Shown piece by piece: positions 1 to 13,297 of a stretch of 13,297 nucleotides of DNA (positions are counted from its first letter, which is position 1; each line of letters begins with the position of its first letter). The DNA is taken from IMG/VR virus record IMGVR_UViG_2541047827_000004. The stretch is one strand, 5' to 3'. Origin of the DNA: a virus. Lineage: Duplodnaviria > Heunggongvirae > Uroviricota > Caudoviricetes. The position numbers and the translations under genes were made by a program. Under the pieces are notes generated by a model. That model searched no databases. It was given only the letters and a program-made list of their open reading frames with translations, and had not been told where the DNA came from.

Positions 1-74
1 CGCGGATTCAGGTGCTGGTACTGAATTCACCGGGAGGCACCCGGCACCATGCAATGGCACATAGCGCCACTCTC

Positions 75-110
75 CAGCCCCTCTCCGGAGGGGCTGTTTA
101 TATTGATTTT
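75..110 (+). terminator. Intrinsic terminator-like hairpin, possibly the tR'-like late-leader terminator
   Basis: Perfect 9-bp stem CAGCCCCTC (75-83) / GAGGGGCTG (88-96) with a 4-nt loop, followed by TTTATATTGATTTT. The late promoter itself would lie upstream of the window. Confidence 0.5.
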
Positions 111-130: not shown

Positions 131-466
131 TTATGGACTTTGTTGTTTTAGCCCATAAGGACATATTTGCAGAGTGCAACGGTTATTAAAGCATTCATTC
201 AATACGTTATCTGTATTTGTAGGGCATTCCTGGCTGTTTTTGATTAAATTCCAGAATGTTTTATTGAATGGTACTACGTTGTAAATGGTTACAGGTAGCA
301 CTTTGTTATTGAGCATGATACCTGTGTGAGTCAGTGTAAATATACTTTCAGGAGGTAAGAAAGCATCCGATTGATACCAGATTATTAATTTTATTTTACT
401 CCATATGACTGAAAAAGATATTCCGCATGATGGCTGGATAACTGTATCAATCACAATCCACTTCAT
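131..466 (-). CDS. Hypothetical protein (111 aa) in an AT-rich island; no recognisable domain
   Basis: Intact ORF with ATG at 466-464 preceded on the minus strand by AAGGAA about 5 nt upstream. Markedly AT-rich compared with flanking phage genes, and opposite in orientation to the late operon. Confidence 0.45.
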
Positions 467-1439: not shown

Positions 1440-2333
1440 GTGATGAATAAAAAATATGAACTGGTTGTTAAGGGGATAAATAATTACGGGGATAAGGTTA
1501 CTGTTACTGTGAAGTCGGAAGGTGACGGGCAAGCGTCGCTGTTGTTGCCAGATGTGGCGATTAGTCTTGACCGTACTGAAGGTGCCACGCTGGAGTTTTA
1601 CGAAGCTGAGGCGAAAAAGCAGGCGAAGCAGTTTTTCATGGATGTTGCTGCCGGGTTATGTGAAGGGGATGAGCAGTCGCCGGAAAAGCGCCCCGTAATT
1701 TTAGAGGCGCAGGATGTGTTGATAACCTACAAAGGAAAGCTACCGGGAAGAATTACTTGTTCTCTGAAGATGCCGCCGTCAACACTGCGGTCAGAAAAAG
1801 ATGATGTTGAATCACGTATTGAAAAACTGGAGAGCTACGTCGTTGAGCTGAATAAGAAATGGTCGATATTGGTGCCTTCTGGCGATGAAAAGCAGTTTGC
1901 TGCGTTTGACGATTATTGTCGGAAAGTGATGAGCAGAAATCTCGCAGAGTGTTTCAGTATTCATAATGATAATTTCAGTGACCCGGAATGGGAGTGTAAC
2001 CGGCCATCCTTTGTTGTATCCGGTGATGCTGGGAAAATAACCATCTCAGAAAATGGGAAAGTAACACCTCCATCGCACCAGCACAGTGAGGAGCTCATTG
2101 AATTTGCCATTGATTACCTGAAGAACAATAAAAAGCAGGGGCTGATGAAGCGCGTTGGCCGTTGCATGGGATATCTTCAGGTAGCCGCTGAGATTGAAGC
2201 GCTGGCCAGTGGTGCTGATAAGGATGCAATTGTGCGGGAGGCTCTTCTTCGTGATTTTAATACTCCACCCTTTAAAAAAGGGCCGGCTTACTGGCTTCAT
2301 CCGGGGCTGACTTATCTTAAAGTGCGTATTTAG
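1440..2333 (+). CDS. Hypothetical soluble protein (296-297 aa) inserted between holin and endolysin; function unknown
   Basis: Long intact ORF. The likely start is ATG 1443 (GTG at 1440 also in frame), with GGGGAGAG 7 nt upstream, 4 nt after the holin stop. No predicted TM segment or signal peptide and no motif I recognise; six Cys residues. Confidence 0.75.
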   Translation: MMNKKYELVVKGINNYGDKVTVTVKSEGDGQASLLLPDVAISLDRTEGATLEFYEAEAKKQAKQFFMDVAAGLCEGDEQSPEKRPVILEAQDVLITYKGKLPGRITCSLKMPPSTLRSEKDDVESRIEKLESYVVELNKKWSILVPSGDEKQFAAFDDYCRKVMSRNLAECFSIHNDNFSDPEWECNRPSFVVSGDAGKITISENGKVTPPSHQHSEELIEFAIDYLKNNKKQGLMKRVGRCMGYLQVAAEIEALASGADKDAIVREALLRDFNTPPFKKGPAYWLHPGLTYLKVRI

Positions 2334-2369
2334 TGGGCCAGGGACAGCGGCTGAATATTTAATATATCC

Positions 2370-2903
2370 ATGAACACCAAAATCAAATACGGCCTGTCGG
2401 CTGCCGTTCTGGCGCTGATTGCCGCTGGTGCGCCTGCGCCTGACATTCTCGACCAGTTTCTGGATGAAAAGGAAGGTAACCACACCACGGCATACCGTGA
2501 TGGTGCAGGTATCTGGACCATCTGCCGTGGTGCCATCATGGTGGATGGCAAACCTGTCGTTCCGGGCATGAAGTTGTCGAAGGAAAAATGCGACCGGGTT
2601 AACGCCATTGAGCGTGATAAAGCGCTGGCGTGGGTGGAGAAAAACATCAGAGTGCCGCTGACCGAACCCCAGAAAGCGGGGATCGCGTCATTCTGTCCGT
2701 ACAACATTGGTCCCGGTAAGTGTTTCCCGTCGACGTTTTATAAACGAATTAATGCAGGTGATCGCAGGGGAGCGTGTGAGGCGATTCGCTGGTGGATTAA
2801 GGACGGTGGCAGAGACTGCCGTATTCGTTCAAACAACTGCTACGGTCAGGTATCCCGTCGTGACCAGGAGAGCGCGCTGGCGTGCTGGGGTATCGACAGA
2901 TAA
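2370..2903 (+). CDS. R: SAR endolysin (T4-lysozyme-like muramidase, phage 21 R21 / DLP12 RrrD-like)
   Basis: N-terminal weakly hydrophobic Ala/Gly-rich segment (GLSAAVLALIAAGAPAP) typical of a signal-anchor-release domain. Canonical lysozyme catalytic triad spacing E-x8-D-x5-T in EGNHTTAYRDGAGIWT. Close match to remembered RrrD. Confidence 0.9.
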   Translation: MNTKIKYGLSAAVLALIAAGAPAPDILDQFLDEKEGNHTTAYRDGAGIWTICRGAIMVDGKPVVPGMKLSKEKCDRVNAIERDKALAWVEKNIRVPLTEPQKAGIASFCPYNIGPGKCFPSTFYKRINAGDRRGACEAIRWWIKDGGRDCRIRSNNCYGQVSRRDQESALACWGIDR

Positions 2904-2992
2904 GCAGAATATTTTGCTGAAAAATAAGGTATGGCCACGCGGGCGGATAACACGAAATCCTGCGAACTGGCGAAACGTAAGTGAATAAAAGT

Positions 2993-3033
2993 AAAAACCC
3001 CGTTTGTTGGCACCAAGCGAGGTTTTGTGTTTC
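2993..3033 (+). terminator. Possible intrinsic terminator/attenuator downstream of the endolysin gene
   Basis: Imperfect stem AACCCCG (2996-3002) / CGAGGTT (3018-3024) with one mismatch, followed by a U-rich tract TTTTGTGTTTCT. Confidence 0.3.
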
Positions 3034-3059
3034 TGACCTTGAGTAAGGCAAGGGAGAAC

Positions 3060-3242
3060 ATGGCGAAGTGTAAACGAATTCTGTTGAGGTTGACTATGAA
3101 AAATGGCCTTGAACTGAAAGCGCCTGTAACTGATGACATCAGCAGAGCACTGGCTTTTGCCATTAAGTGGGTGGCGGTCGGTGTTGCTGTGTCCCCGATG
3201 CTGTATGGGCTGGCAAAACTGGTCATTGCGTTGAAATCGTGA
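3060..3242 (+). CDS. Small hypothetical protein (60 aa) with a C-terminal hydrophobic segment
   Basis: ATG at 3060 preceded by AGGGAGA. Translation [11 protein letters not shown]...[29 protein letters not shown] has a basic N-terminus and a hydrophobic C-terminus. Lies between endolysin and Rz. Confidence 0.4.
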
Positions 3243-3256
3243 AGGGAGGATTAAGC

Positions 3257-3388
3257 ATGTCAGACAAACTCATAACGCTGGCGAAGATCCTCTGTGTAAT
3301 TGTCGGCATTTCATTTTCACTAATGCTGGTTGCTCTTTTTCTTTCCATGGCCTGGATGATGTTGTCTTCGTCGGGGTTGCTGGGGTGA
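3257..3388 (+). CDS. Small hydrophobic single-TM protein (43 aa), stop overlapping the Rz start
   Basis: ATG at 3257 with GGGAGG 6 nt upstream. Translation [43 protein letters not shown]. Its TGA (3386-3388) overlaps the Rz GTG (3385-3387) as GTGA. Confidence 0.4.
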
Positions 3389-3858
3389 ACATAAACCGAA
3401 TGCTTTCCGCGTTTATCGTTATTCTGCTGGTGGCCTGTGGTGCGCTGTGGATGGCAACAGACCATTACCGTGATAACGCGATTACCTACAAAGCGCAGCG
3501 CGATAACAAAGCCAGTGAACTGAAGCTGGCGAACGCAACCATTACTGATATGCAGGTGCGCCAGCGCGATGTTGCTGCGCTCGATGCAAAATACTCGAGG
3601 GAATTAGCCGATGCGAGAGCTGAAAATGAAACTCTTCGCGCTGACGTTGCCGCTGGTCGTAAGCGCCTGCGGATCAACGCCACCTGTCCAGGCTCCGTGC
3701 GTGAAGCCCCCACCACCTCCGGCGTGGATAATGCAACCGGCCCCCAACTGGCAGACACCGTTACACGGGATTATTTCACCCTCAGAGAGCGGCTGATGAC
3801 GATGCAGAAGCAACTGGAAGGGGCGCAGGAATATATCCGTACTCAGTGCCTGAAATAA
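3385..3858 (+). CDS. Rz: Rz inner-membrane spanin (i-spanin)
   Basis: N-terminal TM followed by ...[51 protein letters not shown]..., near-identical to remembered lambda Rz. Start is GTG 3385 or ATG 3400. Confidence 0.9.
3626..3796 (+). CDS. Rz1: Rz1 outer-membrane lipoprotein spanin (o-spanin), embedded in the +1 frame of Rz
   Basis: [56 protein letters not shown]: lipobox VVSAC and proline-rich core matching remembered lambda Rz1 ([14 protein letters not shown]). Nested entirely within Rz. Confidence 0.85.
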
Positions 3859-4184
3859 GTTTTGTTGATGCGCCGTATCGTCGCTATATTCCCTCATTAA
3901 CAGAGACCGCAGCCCGACAGGGAGACTCCTCTGCGCGAGTGTGCGGGGATAATCAAAAACGATACACACCGGGGTTTACCGCGTTAACGGAGCGCGGCGT
4001 TGTCCCCTCATAGTCGCCTGTCCGGTGCGATGGTGGAAGAAACAGGAAGCTGTATTACAGAAAGTGCTACTACTGTATCCCGATGCGATGTATGTAATGT
4101 GAGTCAGATAATGGCACAGGATGTGGTGATGTGGCAGTCTGGAACACAGGATATATTGTCAGAATAAGACCCGTAGGAATAAAA

Positions 4185-4511
4185 ATGAAAAGACGCCTTT
4201 TACTACTTTTTCTGTTATCTGTCCTGGCAGTGGGATGCTCGCAGCAAAAAGCTGATGAGCCCCGGCAATTAGTGACGGTGTATCCACGATATCCGGAATA
4301 TGCTGCAGCAAATTATATCAAGGGGCTGGTTGAGGTTAAGTTCGATATTGGTGCTGATGGGACTGTGACACGGATCGTTTTTCTCCGCTCAGAGCCTCAT
4401 AATTTGTTTCGTGATGAAGTGGTGAAGGCCATGGCGAAATGGCGATTTGAAAAGAATCGCCCCTGTCAGGGAGTGAAGAGACAATTTATCTTTACGCCGT
4501 CACGTCCTTGA
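4185..4511 (+). CDS. Small lipoprotein with a TonB C-terminal-like domain (109 aa)
   Basis: ATG 4185 with AGGAA upstream. Signal peptide plus lipobox (LAVGC). The mature part, VYPRYPEYAAANYIKGLVEVKFDIGADGTVTRIVFLRSEPHNLFRDEVVKAMAKWRF, aligns motif-for-motif with the E. coli TonB C-terminal domain ([53 protein letters not shown]). Confidence 0.75.
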   Translation: MKRRLLLLFLLSVLAVGCSQQKADEPRQLVTVYPRYPEYAAANYIKGLVEVKFDIGADGTVTRIVFLRSEPHNLFRDEVVKAMAKWRFEKNRPCQGVKRQFIFTPSRP

Positions 4512-4603
4512 TGCTTCCAGGTAGAGAGGGGCTGGACGCAGGAGAAAAATGAAAGAGCCAGCGGTTATATTTTTGTCATGGCTGACGAGGAATGATGGAA
4601 GAA

Positions 4604-4626
4604 GGCGTTGTATGCCACACAACGCC
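4604..4626. terminator. Hairpin between convergent genes (possible bidirectional terminator)
   Basis: Perfect 8-bp stem GGCGTTGT (4604-4611) / ACAACGCC (4619-4626) with a 7-nt loop; T-rich sequence follows on the + strand. The U tracts are interrupted, so it is weak as a canonical terminator. Confidence 0.3.
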
Positions 4627-4633
4627 TCACTGT

Positions 4634-4813
4634 TCATTTCTTCTTTTTCTCTGGTGGAACCCGATGAATAAGAGTTGCACTGGTTTCCGATGAGATGGCG
4701 ATATACTCGGGCAAAGTATGCTGGCAGTTTTCCAACTGGTCAAAAATACCTGCTCTCGTCTGTTGCAATGCCTGCAGCATGCGGCGGCAATGCGCCTTGC
4801 TTTTACTAACCAT
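4634..4813 (-). CDS. Hypothetical small protein (59 aa)
   Basis: ATG at 4813-4811 preceded on the minus strand by GAGGAAGGAAAG. The longer 117-aa ORF (4634..4987) overlaps the next minus-strand gene and is probably an over-extension. Confidence 0.3.
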   Translation of the reverse strand: MVSKSKAHCRRMLQALQQTRAGIFDQLENCQHTLPEYIAISSETSATLIHRVPPEKKKK

Positions 4814-4874
4814 CTTTCCTTCCTCTATCAGTCGCTGCGTGAACTCATCATGTAATACCAGGTAAATGCGGATG

Positions 4875-5126
4875 TTATCGGTTTTGGCTACGCAGCATAG
4901 TACAAAACGGACAGGTGCATCCCGGGACGGGGGAGGCGTCACATGTCCCTGTGATGGTTGTTCCGGGTAATGCACTGTGTGGGGCATAAAAATGTCCGAT
5001 AATTTTACTTTCTACCGCAGTTAGTTGATTCGTTGGTCCTGGTAGCACATTGGGCGAGGATTTAAATGCCAGGCAACTGAAGGATGATGTTGCAAGGGAG
5101 ATAGCGAGAATATTTCTGATTTTCAT
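4875..5126 (-). CDS. Hypothetical secreted Cys-rich small protein (83 aa)
   Basis: ATG at 5126-5124 with AGAGG about 9 nt upstream. N-terminal signal-peptide-like MKIRNILAISLATSSFSCLA; C-terminal Cys cluster TGTCDASPVPGCTCPFC. Lies just inside cos in the bor-like moron slot. Confidence 0.4.
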   Translation of the reverse strand: MKIRNILAISLATSSFSCLAFKSSPNVLPGPTNQLTAVESKIIGHFYAPHSALPGTTITGTCDASPVPGCTCPFCTMLRSQNR

Positions 5127-5262
5127 TTGATGATGCCTCTGTGTGAAATGACGGTAAACGACGCACTTGTGCCGGCACATAATAGCAAGCACCATAATAG
5201 ATCAGATTCGATTCTTGCTGTAAGTGATAATTATTCTCGTTTTCGGGTCCTTTCCGTCGATC

Positions 5263-5425
5263 CAACAGGTTACGGGGCGGCGACCTCGCGGGTTTTCGCT
5301 ATTTATGAAAATTTTCCGGGAACCATGTCCGGTTTCTCTTCAAGTTAACTATATGAAAAATAAAAAAAGAGGTCTTCTGTGAACCGGACATGCACAAAAA
5401 ATAGACATGTAAGCCGGACATGACC
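5263..5425 (+). promoter_or_regulatory. cos: cos site: cosN cohesive-end site (GGGCGGCGACCT, 5275..5286) plus cosB with three terminase-binding-like repeats
   Basis: CAGGTTACGGGGCGGCGACCTCGCGGGTTTTCGCTATTTATGAAAATTTTCCGG matches the lambda cos sequence as I remember it. Downstream repeats CATGTCCGG (5324-5332, inverted) and CCGGACATG (5384-5392 and 5414-5422) flank an AT-rich spacer. Located immediately upstream of the terminase genes. Confidence 0.85.
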
Positions 5426-5469
5426 GGTTTTGTTGTGATTGTGAAGTGAGAGTTTTTGCGAGGTGAGGA

Positions 5470-5979
5470 GTGGCTACGCAGACTGAAGTTGCCAGGCATT
5501 TAAGTCTGACCGATCGCCAGCTTCGCAGATTGCAGAAATTGCCGGGTGCCCCGATATCGAATAAGCGAGGGCAACTGGATCTGGATGCCTGGCGCGATTT
5601 TTACATATCGTATCTGAGAAGAAGTAAAAACGATGTGCCTGATGGCGATAGCGAAGACGACTATGAGGAGAAATTGCTTATTGCCAGATGGGAACTGACA
5701 GCAGAACAGGCTGTTACACAGCAGTTAAAAAATGAGGTGTCAAAAGGAAAACTTATTGATACCGGGTTCTGTATTTTTGCCCTCAGCAAGCTGGCAATGG
5801 CGTTATCCAGTACGCTTGATTCCATCCCTTTATCCATGCAGCGACAGTTTCCTGATTTAACACCGCGCCATCTTGACCATCTGAAAACCCTTATTGCGAA
5901 GGGGGCAAATCAGTGTGCGCGGGCGGGGGATAAATTACCGGATTTACTCGATGAATATATCAGAGCAACAACTGAATAA
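5470..5979 (+). CDS. nu1: Terminase small subunit (Nu1 / phage 21 gp1 family)
   Basis: GTG start at 5470 with GAGGTGAGGAG upstream. The C-terminal two-thirds resemble Nu1-family proteins; the N-terminal putative DNA-binding region is divergent. The 3' end overlaps the terminase large subunit start, as in lambda. Confidence 0.8.
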   Translation: MATQTEVARHLSLTDRQLRRLQKLPGAPISNKRGQLDLDAWRDFYISYLRRSKNDVPDGDSEDDYEEKLLIARWELTAEQAVTQQLKNEVSKGKLIDTGFCIFALSKLAMALSSTLDSIPLSMQRQFPDLTPRHLDHLKTLIAKGANQCARAGDKLPDLLDEYIRATTE

Positions 5980-7879
5980 TATGATGAGTGCTGTCACAAC
6001 AGCATTACAGCCCCTGATAAGGGCATTGCCGGTGACGCCAGTTGAATGGGCTGATCAAAATTATTATCTGCCTAAAGAATCTTCATATGGTGAGGGAGAA
6101 TGGAAAACGCTGCCGTTCCAGATCGCCATCATGAACAGCATGGGGAATGATCAGATCCGGACTGTTAATCTGATTAAATCTGCCCGTGTTGGCTATACAA
6201 AGATGTTGCTGGGGGTGGTCGGGTATTTTATTGAGCATAAATCCCGAAACAGTCTGCTTTTTCAGCCCACGGATTCTGCCGCTGAAGATTTTATGAAGTC
6301 TCACGTGGAGGCGACGATTCGGGATGTGCCATGTCTGAAAGACCTTTTTCCATGGCTGGGGCGTAAACATCGTGACAATACCCTCACGCTGAAACGCTTT
6401 TCATCGGGTGTGGGTTTCTGGTGCCTGGGCGGCGCTGCCGCCAAAAACTACCGTGAAAAATCCGTGGACGTGGTCTGCTATGACGAACTTTCCTCGTTCG
6501 AACCGGATGTCGAAAAAGAGGGTTCGCCAACCCTGCTTGGGGATAAACGTATTGAGGGCTCTGTATGGCCCAAATCCATTCGCGGCTCGACGCCTAAAAT
6601 CAAAGGCACCTGCCAGATCGAAAAAGCGGCCAACGAGTCGGCGCATTTCATGCGTTTTTATGTGCCCTGCCCACACTGTGGGGAGGAGCAGTATCTGAAA
6701 TTTGGCGATGAATCCACGCCTTTTGGCCTTAAATGGGAGAAGGACAGCCCCGAAAGCGTTTTCTACCTCTGTGAACATCATGGCTGCGTGATCCATCAGT
6801 CTGAGCTTGACCAGAGCAACGGGCGGTGGATCTGTGAAAACACGGGGATGTGGACCCGTGACGGTCTGACGTTTTTCAGCGCCGCGGATAATGAAATTCC
6901 GCCGCCGCGCTCCATCACGTTCCATATCTGGACGGCGTACAGTCCGTTCACCACCTGGGTACAGATAGTCTATGACTGGCTGGATGCACTGAAAGATCCC
7001 AACGGCCTGAAAACCTTTGTGAACACCACGCTGGGCGAGACCTGGGAAGAGGCCGTGGGCGAAAAACTCGATCACCAGGTACTGATGGATAAGGTCGTGC
7101 ATTACACGGCGGCGGTGCCAGCCCGGGTGGTTTATCTGACGGCGGGCATTGACTCGCAGCGAAACCGTTTTGAGATGTATGTCTGGGGATGGGCACCGGG
7201 AGAGGAAGCTTTTCTGGTGGATAAAATCATCATTATGGGCCGTCCCGATGAGGAAGAGACGCTGTTACGTGTGGATGCGGCGATCAACAAAAAATACTGC
7301 CATGCAGACGGAACCGAAATGACCATTTCCCGTGTCTGCTGGGACACCGGGGGGATCGATGGTGAAATTGTCTATCAGAGGTCAAAAAAACACGGTGTTT
7401 TCCGTGTGCTGCCGGTAAAAGGCGCGTCTGTCTATGGCAAGCCGGTGATCACCATGCCGAAAACCCGCAATCAGCGGGGCGTGTATCTGTGTGAAGTGGG
7501 GACGGACACCGCAAAAGAAATTCTCTATGCCCGTATGAAAGCCGATCCCACGCCTGCGGATGAAGCCACGTCGTATGCCATCCGTTTTCCTGATGATCCG
7601 GAGATTTTTTCGCAGACAGAGGCGCAGCAACTGGTCGCGGAAGAGCTTGTGGAGAAGTGGGAAAAAGGAAAGATGCGTCTGCTGTGGGATAACAAAAAGC
7701 GGCGTAACGAAGCGCTGGACTGCCTGGTGTATGCCTATGCGGCATTACGTGTGTCCGTGCAACGCTGGCAGCTTGATCTGGCTGTACTGGCAAAATCCCG
7801 GGAAGAAGAGACGACCCGGCCAACCCTTAAAGAACTGGCAGCGAAGCTGTCCGGAGGAGTGAATGGTTACAGTCGCTGA
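5951..7879 (+). CDS. A: Terminase large subunit (lambda gpA-like)
   Basis: From ATG 5951 (MNISEQQLNN...) the translation is collinear with remembered lambda gpA (VEWADQNYYLPKESSYGEGEWKTLPFQ..., KNYREKSVDV, C-terminal KKRRNEALDC). The track ORF 5894..7879 has an over-extended N-terminus. Confidence 0.95.
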   Translation: MNISEQQLNNMMSAVTTALQPLIRALPVTPVEWADQNYYLPKESSYGEGEWKTLPFQIAIMNSMGNDQIRTVNLIKSARVGYTKMLLGVVGYFIEHKSRNSLLFQPTDSAAEDFMKSHVEATIRDVPCLKDLFPWLGRKHRDNTLTLKRFSSGVGFWCLGGAAAKNYREKSVDVVCYDELSSFEPDVEKEGSPTLLGDKRIEGSVWPKSIRGSTPKIKGTCQIEKAANESAHFMRFYVPCPHCGEEQYLKFGDESTPFGLKWEKDSPESVFYLCEHHGCVIHQSELDQSNGRWICENTGMWTRDGLTFFSAADNEIPPPRSITFHIWTAYSPFTTWVQIVYDWLDALKDPNGLKTFVNTTLGETWEEAVGEKLDHQVLMDKVVHYTAAVPARVVYLTAGIDSQRNRFEMYVWGWAPGEEAFLVDKIIIMGRPDEEETLLRVDAAINKKYCHADGTEMTISRVCWDTGGIDGEIVYQRSKKHGVFRVLPVKGASVYGKPVITMPKTRNQRGVYLCEVGTDTAKEILYARMKADPTPADEATSYAIRFPDDPEIFSQTEAQQLVAEELVEKWEKGKMRLLWDNKKRRNEALDCLVYAYAALRVSVQRWQLDLAVLAKSREEETTRPTLKELAAKLSGGVNGYSR

Positions 7880-8069
7880 ACTACAGGCGCTGCGTCAGGC
7901 GCGCCTTGATTTATTAACCGGTAAACGGGTGGTGTCTGTCCAGAAAGATGGTCGCAGAATTGAATATACGGCGGCCTCTCTGGATGAGCTTAACCGTGCG
8001 ATCAATGATGCTGAGTTGGTACTGGGGACAACCCGCCGTCGCCGTCGTCCGCTGGGAGTGAGGTTATGA
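7863..8069 (+). CDS. W: Head-tail joining protein W
   Basis: 68 aa; LLTGKRVVSVQKDGRRIEYTAASL matches lambda gpW ([23 protein letters not shown]). GGAGGAG RBS; start overlaps the terminase 3' end. Confidence 0.9.
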   Translation: MVTVAELQALRQARLDLLTGKRVVSVQKDGRRIEYTAASLDELNRAINDAELVLGTTRRRRRPLGVRL

Positions 8070-9658
8070 AACGAACGCCTGTCCTGATTGATGTGAACGG
8101 CGTTCCGCTTCGTGAGAGTCTCAGCTACAACGGGGGCGGCGCAGGATTTGGCGGGCAAATGGCGGAGTGGTTGCCACCGGCGCAGAGTGCCGATGCGGCC
8201 CTGCTACCCGCGTTGCGTCTGGGGAATGCCCGGGCAGATGATCTGGTGCGCAATAACGGAATAGCGGCTAATGCGGTGGCTCTGCATAAGGATCACATTG
8301 TCGGGCATATGTTTCTTATCAGCTACCGCCCGAACTGGCGCTGGTTGGGGATGCGGGAGACCGCGACAAAAAGTTTTGTCGATGAGGTGGAGGCGGCCTG
8401 GTCAGAATACGCAGAAGGGGTGTTTGGCGAGATCGACGTGGAAGGGAAACGCACGTTTACAGAATTTATTCGTGAAGGTGTGGGCGTTCATGCGTTTAAC
8501 GGCGAAATCTTTGTGCAGCCGGTCTGGGATACGGAAACCACGCAGTTATTCCGTACGCGTTTTAAAGCCGTGAGTCCGAAACGGGTGGACACGCCTGGAC
8601 ACGGTATGGGGAACCGTTTTCTGCGGGCCGGGGTGGAGGTCGATCGATATGGTCGTGCCGTTGCGTACCATATCTGTGAGGATGATTTTCCGTTCTCCGG
8701 GAGTGGACGATGGGAACGGATCCCGCGTGAACTTCCCACCGGGCGTCCGGCCATGCTGCATATTTTCGAGCCGGTGGAGGACGGGCAGACCCGTGGGGCT
8801 AATCAGTTTTACAGCGTCATGGAACGGCTGAAGATGCTCGATTCCCTGCAGGCAACACAGCTTCAGTCGGCCATAGTGAAGGCGATGTATGCAGCGACGA
8901 TTGAAAGTGAACTTGATACCGAAAAGGCCTTTGAATATATCGCCGGTGCGCCGCAGGGGCAGAAGGATAATCCGCTTATTAATATTCTGGATAAGTTCTC
9001 CACCTGGTATGACACGAATCACGTGACGCTGGGCGGTGTCAAAATTCCGCACCTTTTCCCCGGTGATGATCTGAAACTTCAGACCGCGCAGGATTCAGAC
9101 AATGGATTTTCGGCGCTTGAACAGGCGCTGCTGCGGTATATCGCCGCCGGTCTTGGCGTTTCCTACGAACAGTTGTCCCGTGATTACTCGAAGGTCAGTT
9201 ATTCAAGTGCCCGCGCATCCGCCAATGAGTCGTGGCGCTATTTTATGGGGCGGCGAAAATTTATTGCGTCCCGGCTGGCCACGCAGATGTTTTCCTGCTG
9301 GCTGGAAGAGGCACTTCTTCGGGGGATTATTCGTCCGCCACGGGCACGTTTTGATTTTTATCAGGCGCGATCAGCCTGGTCACGGGCTGAGTGGATTGGA
9401 GCCGGAAGAATGGCCATTGACGGGCTCAAGGAGGTTCAGGAATCAGTGATGCGCATTGAGGCCGGACTGAGCACGTATGAGAAAGAGCTGGCGCTGATGG
9501 GCGAGGATTATCAGGACATTTTCCGCCAGCAGGTCAGGGAATCTGCAGAGCGGGAAAAAGCCGGACTCTCACGTCCGGTGTGGATAGCGCAGGCGTATCA
9601 GCAGCAGATAGCGGAGAGTCGCAGGCCGGAAGAGGAGACAACACCACGTGAGACGTAA
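8066..9658 (+). CDS. B: Portal protein (lambda gpB-like)
   Basis: 530 aa in the lambda B position; ATG overlaps the W stop (ATGA). Size and synteny fit the lambda portal. Confidence 0.9.
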   Translation: MKRTPVLIDVNGVPLRESLSYNGGGAGFGGQMAEWLPPAQSADAALLPALRLGNARADDLVRNNGIAANAVALHKDHIVGHMFLISYRPNWRWLGMRETATKSFVDEVEAAWSEYAEGVFGEIDVEGKRTFTEFIREGVGVHAFNGEIFVQPVWDTETTQLFRTRFKAVSPKRVDTPGHGMGNRFLRAGVEVDRYGRAVAYHICEDDFPFSGSGRWERIPRELPTGRPAMLHIFEPVEDGQTRGANQFYSVMERLKMLDSLQATQLQSAIVKAMYAATIESELDTEKAFEYIAGAPQGQKDNPLINILDKFSTWYDTNHVTLGGVKIPHLFPGDDLKLQTAQDSDNGFSALEQALLRYIAAGLGVSYEQLSRDYSKVSYSSARASANESWRYFMGRRKFIASRLATQMFSCWLEEALLRGIIRPPRARFDFYQARSAWSRAEWIGAGRMAIDGLKEVQESVMRIEAGLSTYEKELALMGEDYQDIFRQQVRESAEREKAGLSRPVWIAQAYQQQIAESRRPEEETTPRET

Positions 9659-11096
9659 TCTTTCACACATTATTGCCGCAGCATTCAATGAACCGCTGCT
9701 TCTGGAGCCCGCCTATGCGCGGGTTTTCTTTTGCGCGCTCGGGCGCGAGATGGGGGCAGCAAGTCTTTCGGTACCACAACAACAGGTACAGCTTGATGCT
9801 CCCGGAATGCTGGCTGAAACGGACGAGTACATGGCCGGAGGTAAACGACCGGCCCGTGTTTACCGGGTGGTGAACGGTATTGCGGTACTGCCGGTGAGCG
9901 GCACGCTGGTGCACCGGCTGGGCGGTATGCGGCCATTTTCCGGAATGACAGGCTATGACGGCATTGTCGCCTGTCTTCAGCAGGCAATGGCAGATAGCCA
10001 GGTGCGGGGCATACTGCTGGACATTGACAGTCCGGGCGGGCAGGCCGCCGGCGCGTTTGACTGCGCTGACATGATTTACCGCCTCCGTCAGCAGAAGCCG
10101 GTCTGGGCACTGTGCAATGACACGGCCTGTTCTGCAGCCATGCTGCTGGCGTCGGCCTGCTCCCGACGGCTGGTTACCCAGACATCCCGTATCGGCTCCA
10201 TTGGCGTGATGATGAGCCATGTCAGCTATGCCGGTCATCTGGCGCAGGCCGGTGTGGATATCACGCTGATTTATGCCGGGGCGCACAAGGTGGATGGCAA
10301 TCAGTTTGAAGCGTTGCCGGCAGAGGTTCGCCAGGATATGCAGCAGCGGATTGATGCGGCGCACCGGATGTTTGCCGAAAAAGTGGCGATGTATACCGGG
10401 TTGTCTGTGGATGCGGTCACGGGAACAGAGGCCGCCGTTTTTGAAGGTCAGTCCGGCATTGAGGCCGGGCTGGCGGATGAATTAATCAATGCGTCGGATG
10501 CCATCAGTGTGATGGCCACGGCGCTGAACAGTAATGTCAGAGGAGGCACTATGCCGCAATTAACTGCAACGGAAGCCGCCGTGCAGGAGAACCAGCGAGT
10601 GATGGGGATCCTGACATGCCAGGAAGCGAAAGGACGTGAACAGCTTGCCACGATGCTGGCAGGGCAACAGGGCATGAGCGTTGAACAGGCCCGGGCGATT
10701 CTGGCCGCGGCGGCACCGCAGCAGCCGGTGGCATCCGCGCAGAGTGAAGCCGATCGCATTATGGCGTGTGAAGAAGCGAACGGTCGTGAACAACTGGCGG
10801 CTGCACCACTGGCGGATGCCGGGCCCTCACTTCGTGATCAGATCATGGCCCTGGATGAGGCAAAAGGGGCAGAAGCGCAGGCTGAAAAACTGGCGGCCTG
10901 CCCGGGAATGACCGTGGAGAGCGCCCGGGCTGTGCTGGCTGCGGGATCAGGTAAGGCCGAACCGGTCTCTGCATCCACAACCGCCCTGTTTGAACATTTC
11001 ATGGCGAACCATTCACCGGCTGCGGTCCAGGGGGGCGTGTCACAGGCGTCAGAAGACGGTGATGCGGACGTGAAAATGCTCATGGCCATGCCATGA
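9648..11096 (+). CDS. C: Head maturation protease / scaffold fusion protein C (S49 ClpP-like peptidase domain plus Nu3-like C-terminal domain)
   Basis: GTG start overlapping the portal stop. N-terminus IAAAFNEPLLLEPAYARVFFCA matches lambda gpC. Length 482 aa versus roughly 439 in lambda, with repeated Nu3-type motifs in the C-terminal domain. Confidence 0.9.
   Translation: MRRNLSHIIAAAFNEPLLLEPAYARVFFCALGREMGAASLSVPQQQVQLDAPGMLAETDEYMAGGKRPARVYRVVNGIAVLPVSGTLVHRLGGMRPFSGMTGYDGIVACLQQAMADSQVRGILLDIDSPGGQAAGAFDCADMIYRLRQQKPVWALCNDTACSAAMLLASACSRRLVTQTSRIGSIGVMMSHVSYAGHLAQAGVDITLIYAGAHKVDGNQFEALPAEVRQDMQQRIDAAHRMFAEKVAMYTGLSVDAVTGTEAAVFEGQSGIEAGLADELINASDAISVMATALNSNVRGGTMPQLTATEAAVQENQRVMGILTCQEAKGREQLATMLAGQQGMSVEQARAILAAAAPQQPVASAQSEADRIMACEEANGREQLAAAPLADAGPSLRDQIMALDEAKGAEAQAEKLAACPGMTVESARAVLAAGSGKAEPVSASTTALFEHFMANHSPAAVQGGVSQASEDGDADVKMLMAMP
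10551..11096 (+). CDS. nu3: Nu3-like scaffolding protein from an in-frame internal start within C (nested gene)
   Basis: Internal ATG at 10551, in frame with C, preceded by a strong AGGAGG 4 nt upstream. Lambda Nu3 is produced by the same nested-start arrangement. Confidence 0.6.
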   Translation: MPQLTATEAAVQENQRVMGILTCQEAKGREQLATMLAGQQGMSVEQARAILAAAAPQQPVASAQSEADRIMACEEANGREQLAAAPLADAGPSLRDQIMALDEAKGAEAQAEKLAACPGMTVESARAVLAAGSGKAEPVSASTTALFEHFMANHSPAAVQGGVSQASEDGDADVKMLMAMP

Positions 11097-11132
11097 AGTC
11101 AGTGCTGAACATCAATACGAGGTTTTTACAAT

Positions 11133-11480
11133 ATGGTGACGAAAACCATCACTGAACAGCGTGCGGAAGTACGTATTTTTGCCGGTAATGATCCGGCTCA
11201 CACCGCCACAGGCAGCAGCGGGATTTCTTCCGCAACACCGGCTCTGACGCCCCTGATGCTGGATGAAGCCACCGGGAAACTGGTGGTCTGGGATGGACAG
11301 AAAGCCGGTAGTGCGGTTGGCATACTGGTACTGCCGCTTGAAGGCACAGAGGCGGTGCTGACCTATTACAAGTCGGGGACCTTTGCGACGGAGGCAATCC
11401 ACTGGCCTGAAAGTGTGGATGAACACAAAAAGGCAAATGCCTTTGCCGGCACAGCCCTGAGTCACGCGGCTCTGCCGTAA
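11133..11480 (+). CDS. D: Head decoration protein D
   Basis: 115 aa; DPAHTATG, TPLMLD, WDG and LTYYKSGTF motifs match lambda gpD. Confidence 0.9.
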   Translation: MVTKTITEQRAEVRIFAGNDPAHTATGSSGISSATPALTPLMLDEATGKLVVWDGQKAGSAVGILVLPLEGTEAVLTYYKSGTFATEAIHWPESVDEHKKANAFAGTALSHAALP

Positions 11481-11537
11481 CACGTTATCAGGCCACCATG
11501 GTGGCCTGACTGATTTCTGAATGAAAGGAACTGATTT

Positions 11538-12566
11538 ATGGGATTGTTTACGACCCGCCAGTTACTCGGTTATACCGAACAAAAAGTTAAATTCCGTGCG
11601 CTGTTTCTGGAGCTGTTTTTCCGCCGTACGGTGAATTTCCACACCGAAGAGGTGATGCTGGACAAAATTACCGGAAAAACGCCGGTGGCGGCCTATGTCT
11701 CCCCGATCGTTGAAGGAAAAGTGCTTCGCCATCGCGGTGGTGAAACCCGCGTGTTACGTCCGGGCTACGTCAAGCCCAAACACGAATTTAATTACCAGCA
11801 GGCGGTTGAGCGCCTTCCTGGTGAAGATCCGGCTCAGCTGAACGACCCGGCCTACCGTCGTCTGCGTATCATTACCGATAACCTCAAACAGGAAGAGCAC
11901 GCCATTGTCCAGGTGGAAGAAATGCAGGCGGTGAATGCCGTGCTGTATGGCAAATACACCATGGAAGGGGATCAGTTTGATACTGTCGAGGTGGATTTCG
12001 GGCGCTCTGAAGGAAATAACATTGAGCAGGCTGACGGTAAAAAATGGTCTGAGCAGGACCGTGATACGTTTGATCCGACGCATGATATTGACCTCTACTG
12101 CGATCAGGCCAGCGGCCTTGTGAATATCGCCATTATGGACGGTACGGTCTGGCGTCTGCTGAATGGCTTTAAGCTGTTCCGCGAAAAACTGGATACCCGT
12201 CGCGGCTCAAATTCACAACTCGAAACGGCAGTGAAAGACCTGGGGGCGGTGGTGTCCTTCAAGGGGTATTACGGCGATCTGGCCATTGTGGTGGCGAAAA
12301 CGTCTTATGTGGCAGAAGACGGTACCGAAAAACGTTATCTGCCGGAGGGCACACTGGTCCTGGGGAATACGGCAGCAGAGGGCATTCGTTGCTATGGTGC
12401 CATTCAGGATGCGCAGGCGTTGTCCGAAGGTGTGGTGGCCTCTTCCCGTTACCCGAAACACTGGCTGACCGTGGGCGATCCGGCCCGTGAATTCACCATG
12501 ACGCAGTCCGCACCGCTGATGGTGCTGCCGGATCCGGATGAGTTTGTGGTGGTACAGGTGAAATAA
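11538..12566 (+). CDS. E: Major capsid protein E
   Basis: 342 aa; extensive collinear identity to lambda gpE (YVSPIV, PGYVKPKHE, EDPAQLNDPAYRRLRII, GDPAREFTMTQSAPLM, DPDEFV). Confidence 0.95.
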   Translation: MGLFTTRQLLGYTEQKVKFRALFLELFFRRTVNFHTEEVMLDKITGKTPVAAYVSPIVEGKVLRHRGGETRVLRPGYVKPKHEFNYQQAVERLPGEDPAQLNDPAYRRLRIITDNLKQEEHAIVQVEEMQAVNAVLYGKYTMEGDQFDTVEVDFGRSEGNNIEQADGKKWSEQDRDTFDPTHDIDLYCDQASGLVNIAIMDGTVWRLLNGFKLFREKLDTRRGSNSQLETAVKDLGAVVSFKGYYGDLAIVVAKTSYVAEDGTEKRYLPEGTLVLGNTAAEGIRCYGAIQDAQALSEGVVASSRYPKHWLTVGDPAREFTMTQSAPLMVLPDPDEFVVVQVK

Positions 12567-12574
12567 TCCGTGAG

Positions 12575-12603
12575 CGGGGGCGAAATGCCCCCGTGTCTTT
12601 TTT
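12575..12603 (+). terminator. Hairpin plus T-run between E and FI (intrinsic terminator/attenuator)
   Basis: Stem CGGGGGC (12575-12581) / GCCCCCG (12587-12593) with a 5-nt loop, followed by TGTCTTTTTT. Confidence 0.5.
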
Positions 12604-12617
12604 CACAGGAGGCTGAG

Positions 12618-13001
12618 ATGGCAACAAAAGAAGAAAATCTGAATCGTCTTCGTCAACTGGCTGGCCTGCTGGGGCGCGAGGCGGATATGTCGGGGAGTGC
12701 TGCGGATATTGCTCAACGTGTGTCTGAGTGGGAAGAGGAGCTTGCTGTTTCCCCGGAGGGCATTATGCACTCTGATGAGAGCGGGGCTGATCAAAATCAC
12801 ACAGACGATGGTGAGCAGTTGAACAACACGGATGCTCCGGATGATGTTAAAGCCGTCCGGGTACGGAAGTGCCTGCAAGTAATGGGGTATTGCCCGGAGA
12901 CAGGTCGTCCCGTTGAGCTGGCGTTACGGGGTATGCGTGTTCTGGTGCCATCATCACTGGCAACGGCCATGATACAGCACGGAACGGCTGAGCATGCGTG
13001 A
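12618..13001 (+). CDS. FI: DNA packaging protein FI-like
   Basis: ATG 12618 with AGGAGG upstream. Position between E and FII and an acidic, low-complexity composition like lambda gpFI. The track ORF start at 12570 runs through the terminator hairpin. Confidence 0.75.
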   Translation: MATKEENLNRLRQLAGLLGREADMSGSAADIAQRVSEWEEELAVSPEGIMHSDESGADQNHTDDGEQLNNTDAPDDVKAVRVRKCLQVMGYCPETGRPVELALRGMRVLVPSSLATAMIQHGTAEHA

Positions 13002-13297
13002 TTTTCAGAATGCCTTTGATGCTGCCCTCGCCGGGGTGGACAGTACGATCGTTGAAGTGATGGGGATCCGTGCGCAGTTCACCTCCGGAGCACAACGTGG
13101 CGGCGAAGTTCAGGGGGTTTTTGACGATCCGGAGTCGCTGGGTTTTGCCGGTGGCGGGGTCCGTATTGAAGGAAGCAGCCCGTCATTATTTGTGCGGACG
13201 GACATAAGGATCACATTGTCGGGCATATGTTTCTTATCAGCTACCGCCCGAACTGGCGCTGGTTGGGGATGCGGGAGACCGCGACAAAAAGTTTTGT
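12994..13297 (+). CDS. FII: Head-tail connector FII-like, 5' part only; lambda-like sequence ends at 13203 where a duplicated portal fragment begins
   Basis: ATG 12994 overlaps the FI stop. GVFDDPESLGFAGGGVRIEGSSPSLFVRTD matches lambda FII (GVFDDPENISYAGQGVRVEGSSPSLFVRTD) through codon 70. From 13203 the DNA is identical to portal positions 8285..8379. Confidence 0.65.
   Translation, partial: MRDFQNAFDAALAGVDSTIVEVMGIRAQFTSGAQRGGEVQGVFDDPESLGFAGGGVRIEGSSPSLFVRTDIRITLSGICFLSATARTGAGWGCGRPRQKVL
13203..13297 (+). repeat. 95-bp exact direct repeat of an internal portal-gene segment (8285..8379)
   Basis: Base-for-base identity between 13203..13297 and 8285..8379, read directly from the sequence. 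Confidence 0.9.

What the first reader, a model, noticed from the sequence alone, without database searches (positions are those of the whole stretch)
13203..13297. FII interrupted by an exact 95-bp copy of an internal portal segment at the window edge
The lambda-like FII sequence stops after codon 70 (...SSPSLFVRTD), and from 13203 to the window end the DNA is identical to 8285..8379 inside the portal gene. This is either a genuine rearrangement or duplication that would inactivate FII and make the prophage defective, or an assembly or contig-join artifact. The window ends before the far side of the junction.
Basis: seen in the sequence. Interest (0 to 1): 0.5.

Follow-up and report, generated by a model that had tools for sequence, protein, structure and literature searches.

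The report
Assembly artefact at a contig end
The 95-base portal copy that seems to cut the phage FII gene is the last graph edge of a short-read contig that ends at a scaffold gap, in a region where two near-identical prophages were merged, so it is most likely an assembly artefact and not a broken gene.

Summary
Window 13203-13297 is an exact 95-nt copy of 8285-8379, and FII homology stops at 13202 (codon 70). The window is one whole contig of the gapped scaffold KE700617.1 of E. coli HVH 183, with N runs on both sides. Ten Ns follow base 13297. The next contig then carries a second E-FI-FII set with an intact 117-aa FII. The number 95 is K-1 for the K=96 unipath graph of ALLPATHS-LG. It appears at three contig ends: the window start, the window end and the start of the next contig. 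The two E-FI-FII alleles match, at 100%, two separate normal prophages of the complete genome CP030768. Between them the window is a private-variant-free mosaic of those two prophages. This points to a collapse of two prophages. The junction joins 13202 to 8285, which lie 4,918 bp apart on the same strand in end-to-start order with no microhomology. That is the shape expected from a circularised 2-10 kb jumping-library fragment, and ALLPATHS-LG uses such reads unpaired to patch its graph. No other public sequence searched carries the junction. A real 4.9-kb tandem duplication is not excluded (about 12%). Even then an intact FII would remain. Interest is low.

The parts
12994..13202 (+). 5' part of the FII (head-tail joining, gpFII-like) gene, codons 1-70
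   Evidence: Pfam PF05354 matches residues 7-70 and profile positions 3-63 of 99. The stretch is 100% identical to the FII of prophage L001 in CP030768.
13203..13297 (+). 95-nt terminal copy of a portal-gene segment. It is the K-1 overlap of the last graph edge with the portal unipath, and it is followed by NNNNNNNNNN in the source scaffold.
   Evidence: Exact repeat. The 10-N run follows directly in L003 at 13651-13660. K=96 in ALLPATHS-LG (PMC3483556). The tail is 100% identical to the L004-type portal and has 6 mismatches to the L001-type portal.
8285..8379 (+). Original copy of the 95-nt segment, inside the portal gene (codons 74-105)
8066..9658 (+). Lambda-family portal gene (530 aa), intact
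   Evidence: PF05136, E=7.5e-100. Annotated as portal in the reference genomes.
13108..13297 (+). Inferred junction edge of the K=96 graph: the 95 96-mers that span 13202|13203, spelling 95+95 = 190 nt
   Evidence: Inference from K=96. None of these 95 96-mers occurs in the proxy prophages L001 or L004.
13051..13202 (+). 152-nt stretch identical in both FII alleles (this contig and the next contig), just upstream of the junction
   Evidence: The last difference between the A and B alleles is at 13050.
11603..13050 (+). 'A allele' of E-FI-FII5', about 90% identical to the 'B allele' on the next contig and 100% identical to prophage L001 of CP030768
11508..11602 (+). 95 nt identical to the first 95 nt of the next contig in the scaffold (a second K-1 signature)
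   Evidence: The first mismatch between this contig and the next is at base 96 of the next contig.
1..95 (+). 95 nt shared with the L001-type prophage before the two types diverge at base 96 (a third K-1 signature). It is preceded by a 6,870-N gap in the scaffold.
6033..11602 (+). Head-gene region (terminase large subunit, W, portal, S49 protease/scaffold, D) that is an allele mosaic of L001-type and L004-type prophages with no private variants. It is probably a collapsed consensus of two co-resident prophages.

Best explanation
The window is one complete contig (13,297 bp) inside the gapped draft scaffold KE700617.1 of Escherichia coli HVH 183 (4-3205932). The strain carries at least two closely related lambdoid prophages, and the short-read assembler partly merged them. 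The 95 nt at the contig end is not a measured piece of duplicated DNA. It is the K-1 overlap (K=96, ALLPATHS-LG) that any graph edge shares with the edge it runs into. An edge made of the 95 96-mers that span the join 13202|8285 leaves the FII sequence and re-enters the portal unipath. That unipath had already been used, so the contig stops there and the scaffolder wrote a minimal 10-N gap. Those steps are shown or follow directly from the data. The next step is inferred. The junction most likely came from a jumping-library (mate-pair) molecule. In that protocol a genomic fragment of about 4.9 kb spanning 8285..13202 is circularised, which joins its end to its start, and a read across that ligation point reads '...13202|8285...'. 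ALLPATHS-LG uses jumping reads unpaired to patch its unipath graph, so such a read can create a spurious edge. On this reading FII is not interrupted in the cell. The intact FII lies on the next contig.
For: (1) The window equals L003 354-13650 and is flanked by N runs on both sides, 6,870 N on the left and exactly 10 N on the right. (2) After the 10 Ns the next contig starts in the D-E spacer and carries E'-FI'(124 aa)-FII'(117 aa, intact, PF05354 positions 3-96 of 99)-Z-U-V and onward. (3) There are three independent 95-nt signatures. Window 1-95 is identical to the L001-type prophage and diverges at base 96. The first 95 nt of the next contig equal window 11508-11602, with the first mismatch at base 96. 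The tail after the junction is exactly 95 nt. (4) Ribeiro et al. 2012 (PMC3483556) state that the ALLPATHS-LG unipath graph uses K=96, that gaps in it are filled with jumping reads 'ignoring their pairing', that jump fragments are about 3 kb with a 2-10 kb spread, and that reads are 101 nt. (5) Jumping libraries bring fragment ends together by circularisation (PMC3483553). The junction has that topology: same strand, end joined to start, 4,918 bp apart, and no microhomology, as expected for blunt ligation. (6) The complete genome CP030768 carries both alleles in two separate normal prophages about 230 kb apart. The A allele (11603-13202) is 100% identical to L001, and the first 1,839 nt of the next contig are 100% identical to L004. 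Both prophages have an intact FII. (7) Window 6033-11602 is a mosaic of L001 and L004 alleles with 0 private sites. A natural complete prophage (L002) has 78 private or third-state sites in the same test. No complete genome exceeds 99.0% identity over 6900-11602, although the flanking alleles have 100% matches. (8) The junction is absent from 5,426 complete E. coli genomes, 50,697 phage records, the GTDB species representatives, IMG/VR and the JGI metagenomes. The 101-aa fusion product EQT38479.1 is a singleton cluster among about 15 billion proteins. (9) A graph path from the junction through 8380-11507 to the next contig would be 3,128 bp. The assembler neither filled it nor sized the gap near 3.1 kb, although other gaps in the same scaffold carry estimated sizes such as 6,870.
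Against: No reads were available, so nothing shows directly that the junction is missing from the genomic DNA. A real tandem duplication of 8285-13202 would give exactly the same graph and the same contig end. The use of ALLPATHS-LG for this assembly is inferred from the 95-nt signatures and, from my own knowledge, from the Broad Institute origin of the HVH strain series; I could not read it from the record. ALLPATHS-LG error-corrects reads and normally discards one-off chimeric reads, so survival of the edge needs either PCR duplicates or the patching step. 16% of the 96-mers in 6033-11602 are absent from L001 and L004, so the two prophages of HVH 183 are not exactly those proxies, and the cause of the mosaic is not proven. 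My calculation shows that the 10-N gap is expected under the two-prophage model (implied gap about -1.8 kb), but a duplication would also give mixed link signals, so the gap size is only weak evidence.
Confidence: 0.8

Rival explanations
1. There is a genuine direct tandem duplication of the 4,918-bp segment 8285-13202 (portal codon 74 through FII codon 70) in one of the prophages of HVH 183, formed by homology-free illegitimate recombination. The assembler could not walk the repeat twice and stopped 95 nt into the second copy.
For: The end-to-start, same-strand topology is equally what a tandem duplication predicts. The gap is flanked by overlaps with the two ends of the same repeated edge, 8285-8379 and 11508-11602, which fits a path A-S-junction-repeat-B. 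The assembler kept the edge through its clean-up steps.
Against: The junction occurs in none of 5,426 complete E. coli genomes, although about 1,840 of them carry this FI-FII region, and in no other collection searched. There is no microhomology, whereas RecA-independent duplications usually show some (own knowledge). The two E-FI-FII alleles are already explained by two separate normal prophages, as in CP030768, so the duplication would be an extra rare event. The gap was written as 10 N and was not filled or sized near 3.1 kb. The portal tail is L004-type while the E-FI sequence upstream of the junction is L001-type, so the contig as written mixes two prophages anyway.
Confidence: 0.12
2. 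The junction comes from a random chimeric molecule in the ordinary fragment library (ligation of two unrelated fragments, or PCR template switching) and not from a jumping-library circle.
For: Library chimeras exist in all Illumina preparations (own knowledge). The result would also be a spurious graph edge ending 95 nt after the join.
Against: By my estimate, a random join would fall within 10 kb, on the same strand and in back-jump order less than about 0.1% of the time in a 5-Mb genome. Template switching needs homology at the join, and there is none.
Confidence: 0.04
3. A minority DNA species in the sequenced culture carried the join, for example a 4.9-kb circle or a rearranged copy that arose during prophage induction. 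The junction would then be real but not part of the main chromosome.
For: It has the same topology as a circle junction. Lambdoid prophages induce spontaneously (own knowledge).
Against: No known lambda process excises a portal-to-FII segment. There is no repeat or recombination site at either breakpoint. No replication or recombination function is encoded in 8285-13202.
Confidence: 0.03

Closest known systems
K-1 terminal overlaps of de Bruijn/unipath graph edges (ALLPATHS-LG, K=96)
   Same: The overlap length of exactly 95 = K-1 appears at the window start, the window end and the start of the next contig. The contig stops where the path re-enters a sequence already used. K=96 is documented in PMC3483556.
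   Different: Normally the overlap is with the true neighbouring sequence. Here the last edge leads 4.9 kb backwards into the same contig, which needs junction-spanning reads of some origin.
Circularisation-junction (chimeric) reads of mate-pair / jumping libraries
   Same: The fragment end is joined to the fragment start on the same strand. The distance of 4,918 bp lies within the 2-10 kb jump range. The join is seamless with no microhomology.
   Different: This is not demonstrated from reads. Such reads are normally filtered out or used only for pairing.
Collapsed or mis-scaffolded co-resident lambdoid prophages in short-read E. coli drafts
   Same: Two alleles of E-FI-FII are placed one after the other across a minimal gap. 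The shared head genes are represented once, as a mosaic. The contig breaks lie exactly at points where the two prophage types diverge. Complete genomes have a median of 2 such loci per genome.
   Different: None of substance. This is the ordinary failure mode.
Genuine tandem duplications in phage lambda genomes (own knowledge; classical lambda duplication mutants)
   Same: They have a head-to-tail novel joint and leave one intact copy of every gene.
   Different: Nothing here supports the joint beyond one draft contig end, and there is no second occurrence in any collection searched.

Membership tests
Lambda gpFII-like head-tail joining protein (Pfam PF05354 Phage_attach) | Full-length match to the Phage_attach profile (about 99 positions) in a protein of about 117 aa, encoded directly after FI | tested here: not met
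   The window ORF matches only profile positions 3-63 (residues 7-70) at 29 bits, just above the cut-off of 26, so it is a fragment. The copy on the next contig (L003 15138-15491) matches positions 3-96 at 66.8 bits and sits after FI'.
Lambda-family portal protein (Pfam PF05136) | Full-length profile match, with the gene lying between gpW and the S49 protease | tested here: met
   Window 8066-9658 matches profile positions 2-354 of 354 at E=7.5e-100. The gene order W-portal-protease is confirmed. The 95-nt tail is only a fragment of this gene and is read out of frame.
Assembly-graph K-1 overlap at a contig end | The sequence lies at a contig terminus next to a gap or record end | tested here: met
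   10 Ns follow base 13297 in KE700617.1.
Assembly-graph K-1 overlap at a contig end | The length equals K-1 of the assembler, and the same length recurs at other contig ends of the same assembly | tested here: met
   The length is 95 nt at three ends. K=96 for ALLPATHS-LG. That this particular assembly used ALLPATHS-LG is inferred and was not read from the record.
Jumping-library circularisation chimera | Same-strand end-to-start join of two points separated by the library insert size (2-10 kb) | tested here: met
   13202 is joined to 8285, 4,918 bp apart, on the + strand.
Jumping-library circularisation chimera | Junction-spanning reads occur only in the jumping library, often as PCR duplicates, and are absent from the fragment library | not testable with these tools
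Genuine tandem duplication | The novel joint is supported by independent molecules, with raised read depth over the duplicated segment | not testable with these tools
   There are no reads. Indirectly, the joint is absent from every other public sequence searched.
Genuine tandem duplication | A second full copy of the segment follows the joint | tested here: inconclusive
   Only 95 nt follow the joint, then Ns. The next contig resumes at the position equivalent to 11508, with a different (90% identical) E-FI allele.

The most novel reading that the evidence does not exclude
One of the two lambdoid prophages of E. coli HVH 183 really carries a 4.9-kb head-to-tail duplication of portal'-protease-D-E-FI-FII', created by homology-free illegitimate recombination. 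This would give an out-of-frame FII(1-70)::portal fusion ORF of 165 aa and an oversized but still gene-complete prophage.
Probability: 0.12. Interest if true: 0.2.

Novelty: not a real feature. Interest (0 to 1): 0.05.

Why it matters
The biological importance is small. The practical importance is for data quality. The GenBank proteins derived from this contig end and its surroundings are probably assembly products and should not be read as natural variants or as evidence of a defective prophage. They are EQT38479.1, a 101-aa FII-fragment fusion labelled 'portal protein, partial', and possibly the unique portal EQT38474.1 and protease EQT38475.1. The case also gives a simple recognisable signature for such artefacts in ALLPATHS-LG drafts: an exact 95-nt (K-1) stretch at a contig end next to a 10-N gap.

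Tried and rejected
(1) I searched for the junction sequence elsewhere. Exact-pattern scans of the GTDB representative genomes, IMG/VR and the JGI metagenomes found nothing. BLAST against complete E. coli genomes and phage records found no record crossing 13202|13203.

(2) Literature look-ups for the accession numbers found nothing. The original ALLPATHS-LG paper (PMC3029755) is not held. K=96 and the use of jumping reads were therefore taken from Ribeiro et al. 2012.

(3) I considered whether the junction coincides with a point where the two prophage types diverge, which would make it a by-product of the graph. This is rejected. The two FII types are identical from 13051 on for about 550 nt, well past 13202.

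(4) I tested whether the window is a simple K=96 graph path through the two proxy prophages L001 and L004. This is rejected as an exact model. Only 84% of the 96-mers in 6033-11602 are present in them, although 99.9% of the 24-mers are.

(5) I tried the second Broad scaffold (L006) as a clean single-prophage control. It is not clean, because it shows the same mosaic without private variants and ends inside gene E.

(6) The gap size cannot decide between the models. My calculation of the implied link distances gives about -1.8 kb under the two-prophage model and mixed values (-1.8 and +3.1 kb) under a duplication, so 10 N is only weak evidence.

(7) The inverted repeat 10037-10067 / 10874-10904 (74% complementary) was judged a chance match and not pursued.

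Full report
**Observation**

The last 95 bases of the window (13203-13297) are an exact copy of 8285-8379. This is the only direct repeat of at least 20 nt in the window. The number of such repeats expected by chance is about 6e-50. The copy at 8285-8379 lies inside a complete lambda-family portal gene (8066-9658; PF05136, E=7.5e-100).

The FII-like ORF starts at 12994. Its Pfam match (PF05354) covers only residues 7-70, which are profile positions 3-63 of 99. BLAST against 5,426 complete E. coli genomes finds the FI-FII region in about 1,840 of them. In 859 genomes a single alignment covers at least 80% of the query, and all 25 top-ranked hits end at window base 13202. Reference prophages read ...GCGGACGGA|TACGGTG..., while the window reads ...GCGGACGGA|CATAAGG....

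There is no shared base on either side of the join, so there is no microhomology. After the join the frame is out of register with the portal frame.

**Where the window comes from**

The exact S49 protease of the window exists on a single public contig. Fetching that contig shows that the window equals positions 354-13650 of locus L003. This is scaffold KE700617.1 (761,124 bp) of GCA_000458725.1. The strain is Escherichia coli HVH 183 (4-3205932), and from my own knowledge the HVH series belongs to a Broad Institute collection.

The window is bounded by runs of N on both sides, 6,870 N on the left and exactly 10 N on the right. It is therefore one whole contig of a gapped draft scaffold. The 95-nt copy is the very end of that contig, and nothing beyond it exists in the record.

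**What lies after the gap**

The next contig begins in the D-E spacer. It carries a second major capsid gene E', a 124-aa FI', a complete 117-aa FII' (PF05354 positions 3-96 of 99, 66.8 bits) and then the tail genes Z, U, V, G, T, H and onward.

Its E'-FI' sequence is only about 90% identical to the E-FI of the window. The two alleles become identical again at 13051, so that 13051-13202 (152 nt) is shared. The next contig then continues with the normal FII sequence.

**The meaning of 95**

The first 95 nt of the next contig are identical to window 11508-11602, and the first difference is at its base 96. The first 95 nt of the window are identical to the homologous stretch of another prophage type (L001), and the two diverge at base 96. 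The tail after the FII|portal join is also exactly 95 nt.

Three contig ends with the same 95-nt shared stretch are the signature of a de Bruijn or unipath graph with K=96, in which adjacent edges overlap by K-1. Ribeiro et al. 2012 state that ALLPATHS-LG builds its unipath graph with K=96 from 180-bp fragment pairs read at 101 nt (PMC3483556).

An edge made of the 95 96-mers that span a novel join spells 95 nt on each side of it. Its last 95 nt necessarily coincide with the sequence it merges into. The 95-nt copy therefore says only that some input sequence contained the join. It says nothing about how far a second portal copy extends. None of those 95 junction 96-mers is present in the proxy prophages.

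**Two prophages merged**

The complete genome CP030768 (strain 2017C-4173W12) carries both alleles in two separate, normally organised lambdoid prophages about 230 kb apart.

- Locus L001 is 100% identical to window 11603-13202.
- Locus L004 is 100% identical to the first 1,839 nt of the next contig. It also shares the window's left arm and its 482-aa protease variant.

Both prophages have an intact FII.

Over 6033-13202 the window carries either the L001 allele or the L004 allele at every one of 578 informative alignment columns. It switches between them about 24 times, all before 11603, and it has no private or third-state site. A natural complete prophage (L002, strain NR363) has 78 such sites in the same test.

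The clusters of mismatches to L004 in the left arm fall in intervals where L001 is homologous. The stretch 4501-6500, most of which has no L001 homologue, has no mismatch to L004.

No complete genome exceeds 99.0% identity over 6900-11602, whereas the flanking alleles have many 100% matches. The exact portal and protease proteins are essentially unique to this assembly, on 2 contigs and 1 contig respectively. The E and FI proteins occur on about 1,000 contigs each.

The simplest reading is that HVH 183 has an L001-like and an L004-like prophage, and that the assembler represented their shared head genes once, as a mixed consensus. It then placed the two diverged E-FI-FII5' alleles one after the other across a minimal gap. 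This reading is not proven. 16% of the 96-mers in the mosaic region are absent from the two proxies, so the real prophages differ somewhat from them, or the consensus was mixed at a finer scale.

**Origin of the join**

Two normal prophages cannot by themselves produce 96-mers that span 13202|8285, so some input molecule carried the join. Its geometry is specific. The two points lie on the same strand, the downstream point (13202) is joined to the upstream point (8285), they are 4,918 bp apart, and the join is seamless.

Only two processes predict this geometry. The first is a head-to-tail tandem duplication or a circle. The second is the circularisation step of a jumping (mate-pair) library, which ligates the end of a size-selected fragment to its start (PMC3483553). 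Ribeiro et al. report jump fragments of about 3 kb with a 2-10 kb spread. [quoted passage not shown]

A random fragment-library chimera would have this geometry less than about 0.1% of the time, by my estimate. Template switching would need homology at the join, and there is none.

Several points count against a real duplication.

- The join occurs nowhere else: not in complete E. coli genomes, phage records, GTDB representatives, IMG/VR or JGI metagenomes.
- Its 101-aa product EQT38479.1 is a singleton among about 15 billion proteins.
- The two alleles are already explained without a duplication.
- The portal tail is L004-type while the E-FI sequence upstream of the join is L001-type, so the contig as written mixes two prophages.
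- The assembler neither filled nor sized a 3.1-kb gap, although other gaps in the same scaffold carry estimates.

None of these points is decisive without reads. I put the artefact reading at about 0.8 and a real duplication at about 0.12.

The 'assembly or contig-join artefact' alternative is supported. The alternative 'inactivates FII and makes the prophage defective' is not supported. An intact FII lies about 1.8 kb downstream in the same scaffold. Even a real tandem duplication would keep one intact copy of portal, protease, D, E, FI and FII.

**Comparison with what is known, and novelty**

This is the familiar behaviour of short-read graph assemblers in near-identical co-resident prophages, combined with a probable mate-pair chimera. 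It is not a new biological feature. Its only value is as a data-quality flag for the derived GenBank proteins and as an easily recognised signature: an exact K-1 tail next to a 10-N gap.

Noticed in passing
window 6033-11602 (also 2360-4047): The window is an allele mosaic of the two prophages of the complete genome CP030768 (L001 and L004). It has 0 private or third-state sites and about 24 switches. A natural prophage (L002) has 78 private or third-state sites in the same test. The exact portal (EQT38474.1) and protease (EQT38475.1) proteins are essentially unique to this assembly and may be in-silico chimeras.
   Followed up: partly
window ~10798 (S49 protease/scaffold gene 9648-11096): The gene is 57 bp (19 codons) shorter, in frame, than in L001 and L002 (482 aa against 501 aa). 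This is a natural length variant and not a private deletion, because prophage L004 of CP030768 also has a 482-aa protease.
   Followed up: yes
L005 1689-8558 (left of window base 1): The scaffold gap to the left of the window is 6,870 N. In the reference prophages L002 and L004 only about 650 bp separate the Q gene from the window start. The 1,554-bp contig before the gap carries a different Q allele. This suggests mis-scaffolding or a mis-sized gap in the same prophage tangle.
   Followed up: partly
L006 5735 (scaffold KB732853.1 of GCA_000351745.1): A second draft scaffold from another strain, also gapped with N runs, has a contig that starts at exactly the same base as the window, after a 4,025-N gap. 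It shows the same L001/L004 allele mosaic with no private sites. This points to a recurrent assembly breakpoint at this prophage repeat boundary.
   Followed up: partly
window 1443-2333 (+): There is an intact 296-aa DUF1327 (PF07041, YdfR-like) ORF between the holin and the lysozyme. RefSeq annotates the homologous gene in NR363 and 2017C-4173W12 as a truncated 'YdfR family' pseudogene of about 336 bp.
   Followed up: no
window 131-466 (-): A prophage-borne anti-adapter IraM / PmrD-family gene (111 aa) lies upstream of the lysis cassette, as in the reference prophages.
   Followed up: no
window 13203-13297 / GenBank EQT38479.1: The 101-aa product of the truncated FII plus the out-of-frame portal tail is deposited as 'portal protein, partial'. 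That label is misleading, because 70 of its 101 residues are FII and the rest is portal DNA read out of frame.
   Followed up: yes
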